From a virus, in the UHGV virus genome UHGV-0111899: DNA of 23,450 bases. The stretch is one strand, 5' to 3'. Under the pieces are notes generated by a model, which saw only the letters and a list, made by a program, of their open reading frames with translations, made no database searches and was not told the origin of the DNA. Shown here piece after piece: positions 10,866 to 15,730 of this stretch. The stretch's first letter is position 1, and the number at the start of each line of letters is the position of its first letter. The translations under genes were made by a program, and so were the position numbers.

Positions 10866-11302
10866 GCAGCCCGATCTCCCCATCGCGCTTTCCACTCCAG
10901 AGCCAGTCGCGCTTCGTCTGACCACTTAACGCCATGCTCTGTACCGAATGCCTGTATAAGCTCTAATAGCTCCGCAAATTCGCTTACACGCATCCTGCTG
11001 GTTGACTGGCCTATTACCACAAAGCCATTCCCGGCAAGGTTAGGAACAACGTCCTGCTGCTTTAATGCTGCGGTAAACACACACTTCCAGCTTTCTGCAT
11101 CCAGCCAGCGACCATGCCATTCAACCTGACGAGAGACGTCACCAAGGCAAGCCCAAAGCTTTCGATTCTGGTCTAAACTGCGGTTGCGTTCCTGAATGGT
11201 TACTACGATTGGTTTGGTTGGGTCTGGAAGAATTTGCTGTACCGCGTGAATAGCGTTTTGCTGATGTGCTGGAGATCGAATTTCAAAGGTTAGTTTTTTC
11301 AT
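10862..11302 (-). CDS. ninB: NinB (Orf recombination mediator)
   Basis: From the ATG at 11302, MKKLTFEIRSPAHQQNAIHAVQQILPDPTKPIVVTIQERNRSLDQNRKLW... matches recalled lambda NinB. Confidence 0.9.
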   Translation of the reverse strand: MKKLTFEIRSPAHQQNAIHAVQQILPDPTKPIVVTIQERNRSLDQNRKLWACLGDVSRQVEWHGRWLDAESWKCVFTAALKQQDVVPNLAGNGFVVIGQSTSRMRVSEFAELLELIQAFGTEHGVKWSDEARLALEWKARWGDRAA

Positions 11303-11322
11303 GACTTCCCTCTCCCCCAAAT

Positions 11323-11352
11323 AAAAAGGCCTGCGATTACCAGCAGGCCTGT
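11323..11352 (-). terminator. intrinsic terminator between ren and ninB (tR2-like)
   Basis: Minus strand reads AGGCCTGC-TGGTAATC-GCAGGCCT followed by TTTTTATTT: an 8-bp GC-rich stem with U-run. Confidence 0.6.
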
Positions 11353-11375
11353 TATTAGCTCAGTGATGTAGATGG

Positions 11376-11666
11376 TCATCTTTTAACTCCATATACCGCC
11401 AATACCCGTTTCATCGCGGCACTCTGGCGACACTCCTTAAAAATTAGGTTCGTGCTCATCTTTCCTTCCCGTTCTTCCTTGGTAGCAAACCGGTAATACA
11501 CCGTTCGCCAGACCTTACCTTCGATAACCAGAAGACCTGCCCGTGCCATTTTAGCCGCGGCCTGATTTATGCTGGTTACTGTTGCGCCTGTTAGCGCGGC
11601 AACGTCCGGCGCACAGAAGCTATTATGCGTCCCCAGGTAATGAATAATTGCCTCTTTGCCCGTCAT
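11376..11666 (-). CDS. ren: Ren
   Basis: 96-aa translation MTGKEAIIHYLGTHNSFCAPDVAALTGATVTSINQAAAKMARAG... matches recalled lambda Ren. Confidence 0.9.
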   Translation of the reverse strand: MTGKEAIIHYLGTHNSFCAPDVAALTGATVTSINQAAAKMARAGLLVIEGKVWRTVYYRFATKEEREGKMSTNLIFKECRQSAAMKRVLAVYGVKR

Positions 11667-12364
11667 ACACTTGCTCCTTTCAGTCCGAACTTAGCTTTGA
11701 GTTCTGCGATCTTCGCCAGAGCCTGTGCACGATTTAGAGGTCTACCGCCCATGACAGGAAGTTGTTTTACTGGTTCAGGGATCGCCTCACCACGGTTAAT
11801 TCTCGCAGTCATATGGACAAGCTCATCTGCGGCCTTACGGCGTAATTCCGCATCAGTAAGCGCATTGGCCCGCATGTTCTGATACAGGCTGGTAACCAGC
11901 CAGTAGTGCGCGTTTGATTTCCACGGATAAGACTCCGCATCCGGATACAGGCCTCGCTTCCGGCAATACTCGTAAACCATATCAACCAGCTCGCTGACGT
12001 TTGGCAGTCCGGCGATAACGGATGCTTCTTCCCGGCACCATGCAACAAACTGCCCGGGTGATGGCAGAAATGGTCGATTCTGCCGACGGGCTACGCGCAT
12101 TCCTGCGTTAACCTGTTCCATTGTGGTGATCCCGTTTTCCCGGAAAGCCAGAACCCACTGGCGGCGGATTTCGTTCAGTTCGTTCTGGTCACGGTTAGCC
12201 AGACTCGCCGGGAAAGTTGCCAGTAACTGGCTGAACACACCGTTGATGATCTGCGCTACCTGCTGTACCTGCGGCTTTTCGTCGTACTGTTCCGGCATGT
12301 TGTTGGCGATCCTACGCATCTGCTCACGGTCAAAGTTAACCATCTGTGCGGCGATGTTTTTCAT
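11663..12364 (-). CDS. P: replication protein P (DnaB helicase loader)
   Basis: 233-aa translation MKNIAAQMVNFDREQMRRIANNMPEQYDEKPQVQQVAQIINGVF... matches recalled lambda P. Confidence 0.95.
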   Translation of the reverse strand: MKNIAAQMVNFDREQMRRIANNMPEQYDEKPQVQQVAQIINGVFSQLLATFPASLANRDQNELNEIRRQWVLAFRENGITTMEQVNAGMRVARRQNRPFLPSPGQFVAWCREEASVIAGLPNVSELVDMVYEYCRKRGLYPDAESYPWKSNAHYWLVTSLYQNMRANALTDAELRRKAADELVHMTARINRGEAIPEPVKQLPVMGGRPLNRAQALAKIAELKAKFGLKGASV

Positions 12365-13253
12365 AGATCCACCCCGTAAATCCAGTCTGTGTTTGTCAGG
12401 TCGAGTTTTGGTTTGCTGGCTGTCACGACTGCCTGTTGCTTGTTACGGTTGATTTCGAGCTGGGTCCACTTGTCGCGGAGTTTGGCCGGGCTAAGCACGT
12501 TACCGGACCAGAAGTTGTCCTGGCATGCCCAGCGGAACAGCACGCACATGTCGCGGTGGTTACGTCCGTCACGTTCACGCATCAGGCGGATATCGTTAGC
12601 CCACCCTGCAAAATTCGGTTTTCTGGCTGATGGCGCGATGGTCTTCACCATGTCAAACATCCACTCTGCGGCGGTCAGGTCTTCTGCTGTCCCCCACTTG
12701 CTGCCGCTCTGAATTGCAGCATCCGGTTTCACCACAGAAAGGTCGTTTTCTGGCTGGTCAGAGGATTCGCCAGAATTCTCTGACGAATAATCTTTTCTTT
12801 TGTAATAGTGTCTTTTGTGTCCCCCTGTTTTGAGGGATAGCAATCCCCCAATTTGAGGGATGTTTTATCCCTCGTTTTAGGGGATTTTCCCTCGTTTTGA
12901 GGGATGCACCATTCTGAGATGTTTTTGTTTGGTCCAAACATGCCGCCTTGCTGCTTGATAATATTCATTCTGACGAGTTCTAACTTGGCTTCATTGCACC
13001 GTTTAACAGGTAACTTTGTAATCTCGCTAAGTTGAGAATCGGTGATTCTGTCCATTGGTTTATTCCACCCATAGGTTTTACGCAGAATGGCAAGCAGCAC
13101 TTTAAACTGTCGCTTGGTCAGATCTGCGCCTGAATAAGCCTCAAGCAGCATATTTGATAGTCTGGCGTAACCATCATCGAGATCTGCCACATTACGCTCC
13201 TGTCCGGCAAAGTTACCTCGGCCGAAGTTGAGTATTTTTGCTGTATTTGTCAT
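12361..13253 (-). pseudogene. O: replication initiator O, disrupted by a frameshift (apparent 7-bp deletion within the ori A/T-rich tract)
   Basis: Two track ORFs in different frames, 12729..13253 (O N-terminal domain, 154 matching residues then a 20-aa out-of-frame tail) and 12361..12843 (O C-terminal domain, 145 residues); 154+145 = 299 = lambda O length. The locus spans 893 nt versus the 900 nt needed for an intact gene. Confidence 0.8.
12787..12906. repeat. ori-lambda: four ~19-bp O-binding iterons plus shortened A/T-rich segment
   Basis: Plus-strand iterons gtccccctgttttgaggga, tcccccaatttgagggat, atccctcgttttaggggat, ttccctcgttttgagggat at about 12819-12906; adjacent A/T-rich tract at 12787-12807 is shorter than recalled for lambda. 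Confidence 0.8.
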
Positions 13254-13263
13254 AATGACTCCT

Positions 13264-13341
13264 GTTGATAGATCCAGTAATGACCTCAGAATTCCATCTG
13301 GATTTGTTCAGAACGCTCGGTTGCCGCCGGGCGTTTTTTAT
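13264..13341 (+). ncRNA. oop: OOP antisense RNA (antisense to cII 3' end) with promoter pO and terminator tO
   Basis: Sequence GTTGATAGATCCAGTAATGACCTCAGAATTCCATCTGGATTTGTTCAGAACGCTCGGTTGCCGCCGGGCGTTTTTTATT matches recalled lambda OOP RNA; upstream -35 TTGAGT, 17-nt spacer, -10 CATAAT (13251-13256); GC hairpin plus U-run at the 3' end. Confidence 0.7.
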
Positions 13342-13578
13342 TGGTGAGAATCGAAGCAACTTGTCGTGCCAATCGAGCCATGTCGTCGTCAACGACACCC
13401 CATTCAAGAACAGCAAGCAGCATTGAGAACTTTGGAATCCAGTCCTCTTCCACCTGCTGATCTGCGACTTATCAACGCCCACAGCTTCCGCTGTCTTCTC
13501 AGTTCCAAGCATTGCGATTTTGTTAAGCAACGCACTCTCGATTCGTAGAGCCTCGTTGCGTTTGTTTGCACGAACCAT
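13284..13578 (-). pseudogene. cII: cII transcriptional activator, disrupted by a 1-bp deletion frameshift
   Basis: From the ATG at 13578, MVRANKRNEALRIESALLNKIAMLGTEKTAEAVGVDKSQISRWKR matches recalled lambda CII. The frame then leaves the CII reading frame at about 13441-13451 (CC where lambda is recalled to have CCC); the CII C-terminus (DWIPKFSMLLAVLEWGVVDDDMARLARQV...EQIQMEF) continues in another frame down to 13284. Confidence 0.75.
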
Positions 13579-13657
13579 ATGTAAGTATTTCCTTAGATAA
13601 CAATTGATTGAATGTATGCAAATAAATGCATACACCATAGGTGTGGTTTAATTTGAT

Positions 13658-13689
13658 GCCCTTTTTCAGGGCTGGGATGTGTAAGAGCG
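13658..13689 (-). promoter_or_regulatory. nutR (boxA CGCTCTTACACA, boxB GCCCTGAAAAAGGGC)
   Basis: Minus-strand boxA and hairpin boxB between cro and cII, matching recalled lambda nutR. Confidence 0.7.
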
Positions 13690-13697
13690 GGAATGTC

Positions 13698-15053
<1,356 letters not shown>

Positions 15054-15093
15054 TCCCCACCTCAATCTCGATAACCAAAAAACAAACTATTTT

Positions 15094-15183
15094 CCGTTTA
15101 AAAACAATGGAGTTTGTTTTTCATGCCCCTTTTTTACAATATCTCTTGTTTACAACATACAATCTTTCTTGTAATTTTAAGCC
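15094..15183 (+). promoter_or_regulatory. 434-type left operators OL and promoter pL
   Basis: ACAA-N6-TTGT sites at 15094-15107, 15136-15149 and 15159-15172; putative -35 TTTACA (15149-15154), 17-nt spacer, -10 TAATTT (15172-15177). Transcript start near 15184, where sequence becomes the recalled lambda pL leader (ATCAGCAGGACGCACTGACC...). Confidence 0.65.
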
Positions 15184-15217
15184 ATCAGCAGGACGCACTG
15201 ACCACCATTGAAGGTGA

Positions 15218-15248
15218 TGCTCTTAAAAATTAAGCCCTGAAGAAGGGC
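15218..15248 (+). promoter_or_regulatory. nutL (boxA TGCTCTTAAAAATTAA, boxB GCCCTGAAGAAGGGC)
   Basis: Exact match to recalled lambda nutL boxA/boxB in the pL leader. Confidence 0.8.
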
Positions 15249-15406
15249 AGCATTCAAAGCAGAAGGCTTTGGGGTGTGTGATACGAAACGAAGCATTGGC
15301 CAGAAGTGCGAATCCGGATTAGCTGCAAATGAGCCAATCGTGGGGTGTTTTCGTTCAGGACTACGACTCACACACACCACCAAAGCTAACTGACAAGAGA
15401 ATCCAG

Positions 15407-15730
15407 ATGGATGCACAAACACGCCGCCGCGAACGTCGCGCAGAGAAACAGGCTCAATGGAAAGCAGCAAATCCCCTGTTGGTTGGGGTAAGCGCAAAAC
15501 CAGTTAACCGCCCTATTCTCTCGCTGAATCGCAAACCGAAATCACGAGTAGAAAGCGCACTGAATCCGATAGACCTTACGGTGCTGGCTGAATACCACGA
15601 ACAGATTGAAAGCAACCTGCAACGTATTGAGCGCAAGAATCATCGATTTTGGTATAGCAAGCCAAGTGAGTTCGGTATAACTTGTCAAGGAAGACAAAAG
15701 GTTAAAGGGAAATCCATTCCATTGGCATGA
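15407..15730 (+). CDS. N: antitermination protein N
   Basis: From the ATG at 15407, MDAQTRRRERRAEKQAQWKAANPLLVGVSAKPVNRPILSLNRKPKSRVESALNPIDLTVLAEYH... matches recalled lambda N (Arg-rich boxB-binding motif at the N-terminus). Confidence 0.9.
   Translation: MDAQTRRRERRAEKQAQWKAANPLLVGVSAKPVNRPILSLNRKPKSRVESALNPIDLTVLAEYHEQIESNLQRIERKNHRFWYSKPSEFGITCQGRQKVKGKSIPLA

What the first reader, a model, noticed from the sequence alone, without database searches (positions are those of the whole stretch)
13438..13451. cII carries a single-base deletion frameshift
The CII reading frame matches lambda CII for the first 45 residues, then shifts; the remaining CII C-terminus is readable in another frame down to 13284. 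The change lies in a short C/G run (CC where lambda is recalled to have CCC). With the O lesion this points to gradual decay of a cryptic prophage, although a homopolymer sequencing error cannot be excluded for this one.
Basis: partly seen in the sequence, partly recalled or inferred. Interest (0 to 1): 0.35.

Follow-up and report, generated by a model that had tools for sequence, protein, structure and literature searches.

The report
Real one-base frameshift in prophage cII
The lysogeny-establishment gene cII of a lambda-like prophage is broken by a genuine, inherited one-base deletion that recurs in about a dozen independent assemblies, which makes it an ordinary young prophage pseudogene and not a sequencing error.

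Summary
On the minus strand, cII (13578..13286) reads AGAGGACTGG where lambda, phage 434 and the closest E. coli prophages read AGAGGGACTGG. On the plus strand this is CC at 13444-13445 in place of CCC. Residues 1-45 match lambda CII 100% in one frame, and residues 44-97 continue in another.

The deletion is not a sequencing error. The same allele is present in 11 other samples, including an NCBI isolate genome and several metagenomes. Some of these carry small additional differences, so they are not all the same strain resequenced.

The allele is private to one prophage lineage. This is an imm434-type lambdoid prophage integrated at attB-lambda, next to ybhC. None of about 825 complete E. coli genomes that carry this stretch of cII has the deletion.

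The lesion is young. One intact prophage (strain 09A19CPO009) is identical over 2.78 kb except for this G and a 7-bp deletion in O. The CII target boxes, the oop terminator and a pO-like promoter are all still present.

The expected effect is loss of the CII tetramerisation half. That would remove activation of pRE and pI, and of paQ if the Q-antisense box marks one, and cost a resident prophage nothing.

The "decay" reading is only partly borne out. Every other early gene tested is intact, and the O lesion looks like a recurrent slippage allele. Interest is low.

The parts
13286..13578 (-). cII pseudogene: start ATG at 13578-13576, original stop TGA at 13288-13286, 293 nt instead of 294
   Evidence: Alignment to lambda, 434 and E. 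coli 181.1. tblastn shows two frames. Pfam PF05269 is split between them.
13444..13445 (.). Site of the 1-bp deletion: CC on the plus strand (GG on the coding strand) where all relatives have CCC/GGG. Affects codons 45/46, AGG GAC -> AGG AC
   Evidence: Absent from about 825 complete E. coli genomes. Present in L004/L029, L013-L020, L030 and L031.
13444..13578 (-). Retained in-frame part, CII residues 1-45 (N-terminal helices including the helix-turn-helix)
   Evidence: 100% identity to lambda CII residues 1-45. Matches Pfam profile positions 1-46.
13213..13443 (-). Out-of-frame tail of the mutant product (76 residues). It reads through the old cII stop, the oop overlap and the O ribosome-binding site and start, and stops 40 nt inside O
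   Evidence: ORF 13213..13638 / 13213..13578. O starts at 13253.
13286..13453 (-). Stranded C-terminal coding part of cII (residues 44-97: alpha4 tetramerisation helix and C-terminal tail), now in a different frame. Appears as a 55-codon GTG ORF with no obvious ribosome-binding site
   Evidence: Matches Pfam profile positions 45-91.
13556..13569 (+). CII box TTGCGTTTGTTTGC at pRE, overlapping the 5' end of cII. Intact
   Evidence: Same position as the annotated CII site in phage 434.
13310..13337 (+). oop terminator hairpin followed by a T-run. A pO-like promoter lies at 13228-13256 (+). Both intact
   Evidence: oop is annotated at the same place in phage 434.
22108..22121 (+). CII box TTGCGTGTAATTGC just upstream of xis (xis spans 22134-22349), where lambda's pI lies. 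Intact
   Evidence: xis and int are intact. That this is the pI position is from my own knowledge of lambda.
12729..13253 (-). O gene N-terminal fragment (174 aa: 154 O residues plus an out-of-frame tail)
   Evidence: The exact product is found in many prophages.
12792..12802 (.). Site of the 7-bp deletion in the AT-rich part of ori within O: ACAAAAGAAAAAAGAAAAGAT -> ACAAAAGAAAAGAT, loss of one AAAAGAA repeat
   Evidence: PGAP labels the same allele 'frameshifted' in FDAARGOS_946.
12361..12732 (-). O gene C-terminal fragment. The open frame is kept; its GTG at 12732-12730 overlaps the N-fragment stop at 12731-12729 (GTGA)
13701..13913 (-). cro of the 434 immunity type, intact (context)
   Evidence: 100% identity to 434 Cro.
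14020..14652 (+). cI repressor of the 434 immunity type, intact (context: prophage maintenance does not need CII)
   Evidence: 98.6% identity to 434 cI over 210 aa.

Best explanation
A genuine, vertically inherited one-base deletion has made a pseudogene of cII in an imm434-type lambdoid prophage integrated at the lambda attachment site next to ybhC. The deletion removes one G from the GGG that spans codons 45/46.

Translation from the normal start gives CII residues 1-45, which include the helix-turn-helix. These are followed by 76 unrelated residues. The ribosome runs past the old cII stop, through the oop overlap and across the O start, and stops 40 nt into O. The alpha4 helix that builds the CII tetramer is no longer attached.

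Inferred consequence: the product cannot activate pRE and pI, or paQ if the CII-type box antisense to Q marks one here, so a phage released from this prophage could not establish lysogeny efficiently. The resident prophage loses nothing. Maintenance uses cI transcribed from pRM, and cII is silent under repression, so the mutation is neutral in the lysogen and is carried along with the host lineage.

The lesion is young. Its cis targets are intact, and its nearest intact relative differs by no substitution over 2.78 kb.

Shown: the deletion, its heritability, its restriction to one lineage, the split of the CII domain, and the intact surroundings. Inferred: loss of CII activity and neutrality.
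For: The deletion and the two reading frames. The repaired protein is 96/97 identical to lambda CII, PDB 1XWR/1ZPQ/8IGR.

The same allele occurs in 11 other samples: JGI 3300029521, ERR1190758, SRR27381341, SRR7295725, SRR7295726, SRR13318237, SRR35865853, SRR29490267, ERZ27268167, ERZ27272441 and the isolate GCA_012905745.1. These carriers are not one strain resequenced:
- L004 has a different Q module but is otherwise identical.
- L016 has a 5-SNP patch in O.
- L015 has 1 SNP and 1 indel.
- L030 has 1 mismatch in 12.8 kb.

Absent from about 825 complete E. coli genomes with this cII stretch. The intact twin haplotype in strain 09A19CPO009 is identical from 11178 to 13954 except for the two indels. 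CII boxes, the oop terminator and a pO-like promoter are intact. All other early genes are intact.

Literature:
- CII is needed only to enter lysogeny; it activates PI, PRE and PAQ and 'is no longer required' afterwards (PMC9986795).
- CII acts as a tetramer (PMC2995052).
- A 2010 study, known here only by its title in a reference list, reports that alpha4 hydrophobic residues are crucial for the tetramer (PMC3053222).
- Only the last 17 residues are dispensable (PMC3349717).
Against: No read-level data could be inspected for the window's own assembly. No functional assay exists. The claim that a product with residues 1-45 plus a nonsense tail is inactive rests on published structure-function knowledge, not on a test. 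The pattern scans of GTDB representatives, IMG/VR and JGI contigs found no copy. However, the JGI scan missed a JGI contig that does carry the allele, so those negatives are weak. Neutrality as opposed to selection cannot be decided from these data.
Confidence: 0.9

Rival explanations
1. Homopolymer sequencing or assembly error: the genome really has GGG and cII is intact.
For: The site is a short G/C run. The window's own reads cannot be inspected. No complete RefSeq E. coli genome shows the allele.
Against: The identical deletion is present in 11 other samples, from different projects and assemblers: Logan, ENA/MEGAHIT, JGI and an NCBI isolate. A 2/3-base run is not a typical error hotspot, and about 825 other assemblies read GGG without trouble.
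Confidence: 0.02
2. Selected domestication: loss of cII, together with loss of O, was favoured in the host because it disarms the prophage while keeping its immunity and exclusion genes. The two indels would then be adaptive, not neutral decay.
For: Relative to the intact twin haplotype there are two frame-breaking indels and zero substitutions in 2.78 kb. Both hit the pR operon, while cI, hex, the Nun-like gene, N, the recombination genes and the lysis genes stay intact. The lineage is seen in many samples. Replication from a trapped induced lambda prophage is lethal to the host ('replicative killing', discussed in PMC3349717), which gives a plausible benefit for losing O.
Against: cII is not expressed in a repressed lysogen, so its loss has no obvious benefit. 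The O deletion sits at a tandem 7-bp repeat and recurs on several haplotypes, so a high mutation rate explains it without selection. Two events are too few for a test. The twin haplotype was chosen as the best match and may share the segment through recombination.
Confidence: 0.07
3. Recoding: the frame is restored during expression by -1 ribosomal frameshifting or transcriptional slippage at AAG AGG AC. Full-length CII would still be made, at a reduced and tuned level.
For: The C-terminal frame is still fully open and unchanged. A -1 shift after AGG would recreate the exact wild-type sequence. AGG is a rare codon and GGAAGAGG resembles a Shine-Dalgarno sequence (read directly from the sequence).
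Against: There is no X_XXY_YYZ slippery heptamer and no A/T run for transcriptional slippage at the site. The two-frame arrangement is not conserved: about 825 relatives have the single frame. The open C-terminal frame is expected anyway for a lesion this young.
Confidence: 0.01

Closest known systems
Bacteriophage lambda / 434 cII (Pfam PF05269 Phage_CII; PDB 1XWR, 1ZPQ, 1ZS4, 8IGR)
   Same: Same gene at the same map position: cro - nutR - cII - oop - O. Nucleotide sequence is 98-99% identical. The repaired product is 96/97 identical to lambda CII. The pRE box and a box just upstream of xis, where lambda's pI lies, are the same, as is the oop overlap.
   Different: One G is missing at codons 45/46, so only residues 1-45 are made in frame. 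The allele also has GGGGTG where lambda has its G6 run further downstream.
Laboratory cII- clear-plaque mutants of lambda and cII frameshift mutants from the transgenic-rodent cII mutation assay (from my own knowledge)
   Same: Loss-of-function point or frameshift lesions in the same 294-nt gene. The expected phenotype is failure to establish lysogeny, with normal lytic growth and normal prophage maintenance.
   Different: Those are selected in the laboratory in free phage. This one is a natural allele fixed in a resident prophage lineage. It is not at the well-known G6 hotspot (cII nt 179-184), which is interrupted in this allele.
Conserved frameshift lesions in otherwise intact prophages, for example the tail-assembly frameshift of Salmonella prophage ST64B (PMC7067206)
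   Same: A single frameshift in one gene of an otherwise complete prophage, conserved among strains of a host lineage.
   Different: ST64B's lesion blocks virion assembly. The cII lesion affects only the lysis-lysogeny decision of any progeny phage.
Frameshifted lambda-type O replication gene annotated by PGAP in E. coli FDAARGOS_946 (NZ_CP065607.1)
   Same: The identical 7-bp AAAAGAA deletion in the ori AT-rich region as in the window, giving the same 174-aa N fragment.
   Different: That prophage has a different immunity region and an intact cII. Its O haplotype differs from the window's at 12 sites, all synonymous in the O reading frames.

Membership tests
Lambda CII transcriptional activator (PF05269) | Sequence homology to Phage_CII over the whole domain | tested here: met
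   Profile positions 1-46 (E 1.7e-19) and 45-91 (E 6.3e-23) both match, but in two different frames.
Lambda CII transcriptional activator (PF05269) | One uninterrupted reading frame of about 97 codons | tested here: not met
   The frame shifts after codon 45. It is therefore a cII pseudogene, not a functional member.
Lambda CII transcriptional activator (PF05269) | Position between cro/nutR and O, with its 3' end overlapped by antisense oop, and TTGCN6TTGC boxes at target promoters | tested here: met
   Gene order. Boxes lie at 13556-13569 (pRE), at 22108-22121 just upstream of xis (where lambda's pI lies), and antisense in Q at 7859-7872. The oop terminator and a pO-like promoter are present.
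Lambda CII transcriptional activator (PF05269) | Tetramer formation and activation of pRE, pI and paQ | not testable with these tools
   Requires a biochemical or reporter assay. Loss is inferred from the missing alpha4 helix (literature).
Genuine frameshift pseudogene (as opposed to an assembly artefact) | Indel relative to intact orthologues, reproduced in independent assemblies | tested here: met
   Found in 11 other samples. An intact twin haplotype exists.
Genuine frameshift pseudogene (as opposed to an assembly artefact) | Support from raw reads of the source genome | not testable with these tools
   No read data are accessible.
Programmed ribosomal frameshift / recoding site | Slippery motif at the shift site | tested here: not met
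   No X_XXY_YYZ heptamer and no homopolymer at the site.
Programmed ribosomal frameshift / recoding site | Conservation of the two-frame arrangement among relatives | tested here: not met
   About 825 of 825 complete genomes carry the single-frame gene.
Cryptic (defective, decaying) prophage | Several inactivating lesions or deletions across functional modules | tested here: inconclusive
   Only cII and O are disrupted. int, xis, exo, bet, gam, kil, cIII, N, cI, cro, P, ren, ninB, ninG, ninH and ninI, and the lysis genes S and R, are full length. Long open frames (183, 540 and 489 aa) lie where the same prophage in L004 has its terminase small subunit, a 540-aa gene and the portal. The tail region lies outside the window.
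Cryptic (defective, decaying) prophage | Inability to produce infectious phage on induction | not testable with these tools
   Needs an induction experiment. The O frameshift predicts a replication defect, but this is not shown.

The most novel reading that the evidence does not exclude
The most novel reading not excluded concerns the companion O lesion, not cII. The 7-bp ori deletion recurs on at least 5 haplotypes. It places an in-frame A_AAG slip motif 3 nt upstream of a stable hairpin (-18.9 kcal/mol, z = -3.5). A -1 ribosomal shift there would restore full-length O lacking only two residues (RK). The allele could then be a dnaX-like two-product replication gene, making a DNA-binding N fragment plus a little full-length O. 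That would throttle prophage replication instead of abolishing it. Combined with a dead cII, it would define a semi-domesticated prophage state that has been selected for. For cII itself the evidence leaves essentially no novel reading.
Probability: 0.06. Interest if true: 0.5.

Novelty: already known. Interest (0 to 1): 0.1.

Why it matters
It matters little beyond correct annotation. The locus should be annotated as a cII pseudogene (frameshifted), not as a 141-aa "CII family" protein, which is what gene callers produce from it.

It is a clean and datable example of the first steps of prophage inactivation. Two indels have arisen on a haplotype that is otherwise identical to an intact relative. 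The allele can also serve as a lineage marker for this imm434 prophage in isolates and gut or environmental metagenomes.

If the lesions proved to be selected, they would illustrate how hosts disarm prophages while keeping the immunity and exclusion genes. Nothing here requires that.

Tried and rejected
- **Exact-pattern scans.** I scanned for the deletion allele (29-mer) in GTDB representative genomes, IMG/VR and JGI metagenome contigs. All three returned 0. The JGI scan nevertheless missed contig Ga0244833_100808, which does carry the allele. These negatives therefore say little.
- **Look-ups of the mutant products.** Exact-protein look-ups of the 121-aa product (from the true start) and the 55-aa C-terminal ORF found nothing. 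Gene callers choose the 141-aa ORF from an upstream ATG, and that look-up did find carriers.
- **Rfam.** A scan of 12500-15500 at gathering thresholds gave no family. oop integrity was judged instead from the terminator and promoter scan and from the phage 434 annotation.
- **Sequencing error.** Rejected on the independent assemblies.
- **Programmed frameshifting in cII.** Rejected: no slippery motif and no conservation.
- **The O deletion as a single old allele spread by recombination.** Weakened. The window's O haplotype is identical to an intact allele apart from the 7-bp gap (H178). It differs at 12 sites from another deletion allele, the FDAARGOS_946 type. Recurrent slippage, or short-patch conversion, fits better.
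- **The O deletion as proof of a dead prophage.** Not accepted as shown. The deletion is absent from 136 phage records, but at a frequency of about 1% in prophages that absence is not significant.
- **Literature.** A search for natural cII frameshift pseudogenes gave nothing specific. The PNAS CII structure paper is not held in the library.

Full report
**What the window is.** The 23.45-kb window is a lambdoid prophage, read in the opposite direction to the lambda map.
- int (22330-23400) and xis lie at the right end.
- Open frames of 183, 540 and 489 aa lie at the left end. The same prophage in L004 has its terminase small subunit, a 540-aa gene and the portal at these positions.
- The immunity region is of the phage 434 type: cI 14020-14652 on the plus strand, cro 13913-13701 on the minus strand, hex, N and a Nun-like gene, each 97-100% identical to phage 434.
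- cII, O, P, ren, the nin genes, exo, bet, gam, kil and cIII are 97-100% identical to lambda or 434.
- In sister contigs the prophage lies next to ybhC (pectinesterase), which is the lambda attachment site.

**The observation.** On the minus strand, cII starts at 13578. The sequence reads ...AGCAGGTGGAAGAGGACTGGATT.... Lambda, phage 434 and E. coli 181.1 read ...GGAAGAGGGACTGG.... One G of the GGG spanning codons 45/46 (AGG GAC) is missing. On the plus strand this is CC at 13444-13445, inside the reported coordinates.
- tblastn with lambda CII gives residues 1-45 at 100% identity in frame -3 and residues 44-97 in frame -2, down to the stop at 13288-13286.
- Pfam Phage_CII is split at profile position 46 of 91.
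- Putting the G back gives a protein 96/97 identical to the CII of PDB 1XWR/1ZPQ/8IGR.

**Error or mutation?** Over 501 bp the deletion is the only difference from five complete E. coli genomes. In a 67-bp search centred on the site, every top-ranked hit among 825 full-length matches shows the one-base gap, and none is a perfect match.

Exact-product look-ups then found the same allele in other assemblies. The 141-aa ORF that gene callers derive from the mutant is encoded on 8 contigs, from Logan and ENA assemblies. Look-ups with the O fragment and with a b-region gene added a JGI metagenome contig, a further Logan contig, an ENA contig and an NCBI isolate assembly, GCA_012905745.1. All of these contain the 29-mer with GG.

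In total the allele is present in 11 samples besides the window. The carriers are not all the same strain:
- L004 carries a different Q module (window 6953-7933) but is otherwise identical.
- L016 has a 5-SNP patch in O.
- L015 has one SNP and one indel.
- L030 has one mismatch in 12.8 kb.

A sequencing artefact is therefore excluded for practical purposes. This is an inherited allele of one prophage lineage.

**Age and ancestry.** Strain 09A19CPO009 (NZ_CM148343.1) carries an imm434-type prophage in which cII (97 aa) and O (299 aa) are annotated as intact. From window 11178 to 13954 it is identical to the window except for exactly two indels: the G in cII and AAAAGAA in O. This 2.78-kb stretch covers the 3' end of cro, nutR, cII, oop, O, P and ren. 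Both lesions are therefore recent.

Consistent with that, several cis elements are intact:
- the CII boxes TTGCN6TTGC at pRE (13556-13569) and just upstream of xis, where lambda's pI lies (22108-22121);
- a third box antisense to Q (7859-7872);
- the oop terminator (13310-13337) and a pO-like promoter.

**What the mutation does (inferred).** The mutant mRNA encodes CII residues 1-45 followed by 76 out-of-frame residues. The ribosome passes the old stop and the oop overlap, crosses the O ribosome-binding site and start (13253), and stops at 13215-13213.

CII works as a tetramer that recognises direct repeats (PMC2995052). A 2010 study, which I know only by its title in a reference list, reports that hydrophobic residues of helix alpha4 are crucial for the tetramer and for the lysogenic choice (PMC3053222). 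Only the last 17 residues are dispensable (PMC3349717). From my own knowledge of the CII structures, alpha4 lies downstream of residue 45; this was not checked with a tool here. The product should therefore be inactive.

CII is required only to enter lysogeny. [quoted passage not shown] For the resident prophage, which keeps an intact cI and its operators, the loss costs nothing. For any released phage it would mean a clear-plaque, poorly lysogenising phenotype.

There is no slippery heptamer and no homopolymer at the site that could restore the frame during expression. The two-frame arrangement is not conserved either. Recoding is therefore very unlikely.

**The "decay" context.** Of about 35 lambda, 434 and related proteins tested against the window, only CII and O are split. 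The O lesion is the loss of one copy of a tandem AAAAGAA repeat in the AT-rich part of ori. This gives a 174-aa N fragment, followed by a still-open C frame whose GTG overlaps the N-fragment stop (GTGA).

The O allele is not private to this prophage:
- The exact 174-aa product is listed in 36 blocks of the collection. It occurs in prophages with lambda-type, 434-type, P22-Cro-type and other immunity regions, and at least one has a different integrase. Most of these have intact cII.
- About 14-18 of roughly 1330 complete E. coli genomes carry it.
- PGAP labels it "frameshifted".
- None of 136 phage records has it. At a frequency of about 1% that absence is not significant.

The deletion sits on at least five O haplotypes, whose mutual differences are almost all synonymous. 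The window's O haplotype is identical to an intact allele apart from the 7-bp gap (H178). It differs at 12 sites from the FDAARGOS_946-type deletion allele. Recurrent slippage at the repeat, or short-patch conversion, explains this best.

The O lesion is weaker support for it than it first seemed.

**Rivals.**
- Sequencing error is essentially refuted.
- Recoding has no support.
- Selected domestication is possible. There are two frame-breaking indels and no substitution in 2.78 kb, both in the pR operon. It cannot be tested with two events, and the O site is a mutational hotspot. cII loss also has no obvious benefit under repression.

**Side observation.** In the O deletion allele, the in-frame motif A_AAG lies 3 nt upstream of a stable hairpin, the ori palindrome (-18.9 kcal/mol, z = -3.5). 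A -1 slip there would restore O lacking two residues. This is speculative and is recorded as the novel case.

**Verdict.** This is a real, lineage-specific, recent one-base deletion that makes lambda-type cII a pseudogene in an otherwise largely intact imm434 prophage. Interest is low.

Noticed in passing
window 12792-12802 (O/ori), with fragments 12729-13253 and 12361-12732: The 7-bp deletion of one AAAAGAA repeat in the ori AT-rich region recurs on at least 5 O haplotypes, in prophages of different immunity types. About 1% of complete E. coli genomes with this O segment have it, and 0 of 136 phage records. Differences between the deletion alleles are nearly all synonymous in the O frames, and the window's haplotype has an intact twin. 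It looks like a slippage hotspot.
   Followed up: partly
window 12735-12812 (minus strand): In the O deletion allele, an in-frame A_AAG motif lies 3 nt upstream of a 10-bp hairpin (MFE -18.9 kcal/mol, z = -3.5). A -1 ribosomal slip there would restore full-length O lacking residues RK. Separately, the N-fragment stop and a GTG of the C frame overlap as GTGA at 12729-12732.
   Followed up: partly
window 6953-7933 (Q region): This is the only segment that differs between the window and the otherwise identical JGI/ENA copies (L004, L012): a mosaic replacement of the Q antiterminator module (172 aa against 162 aa). The replaced segment contains a CII-type box, TTGCGTGGCTTTGC, at 7859-7872, antisense to Q (paQ-like).
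   Followed up: no
window 13993-14000 (plus strand): A G8 run lies just upstream of the cI ribosome-binding site, in the pRM leader. Phage 434 has 5 G here and E. coli 181.1 has 7. The length of this homopolymer varies among imm434 prophages.
   Followed up: no
window 20673-21491; loci L022-L028: The 272-aa dATP/dGTP pyrophosphohydrolase-DUF551 gene and the adjacent int are shared at over 99% identity with a quite different element at the same ybhC attachment site. That element has a P22-like tailspike, antirepressor and Arc genes. This indicates module exchange at the att-proximal end.
   Followed up: no
window 19838: A one-base difference from lambda in a T-run within orf61 changes that ORF's C-terminus. 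E. coli 181.1 shows no gap against the window here, so it is a shared allele and not a private lesion.
   Followed up: partly
window 13213-13638: Gene callers annotate the mutant cII as a 141-aa 'Phage_CII' protein starting at an upstream ATG (13638) and overlapping O. This is an annotation artefact that hides the pseudogene.
   Followed up: yes
Metagenome contigs pattern scan against L004: The exact-pattern scan of JGI metagenome contigs returned 0 hits. Yet JGI contig Ga0244833_100808, retrieved by protein look-up, contains the pattern. The two collections are not congruent, so negative pattern scans are weak evidence.
   Followed up: yes
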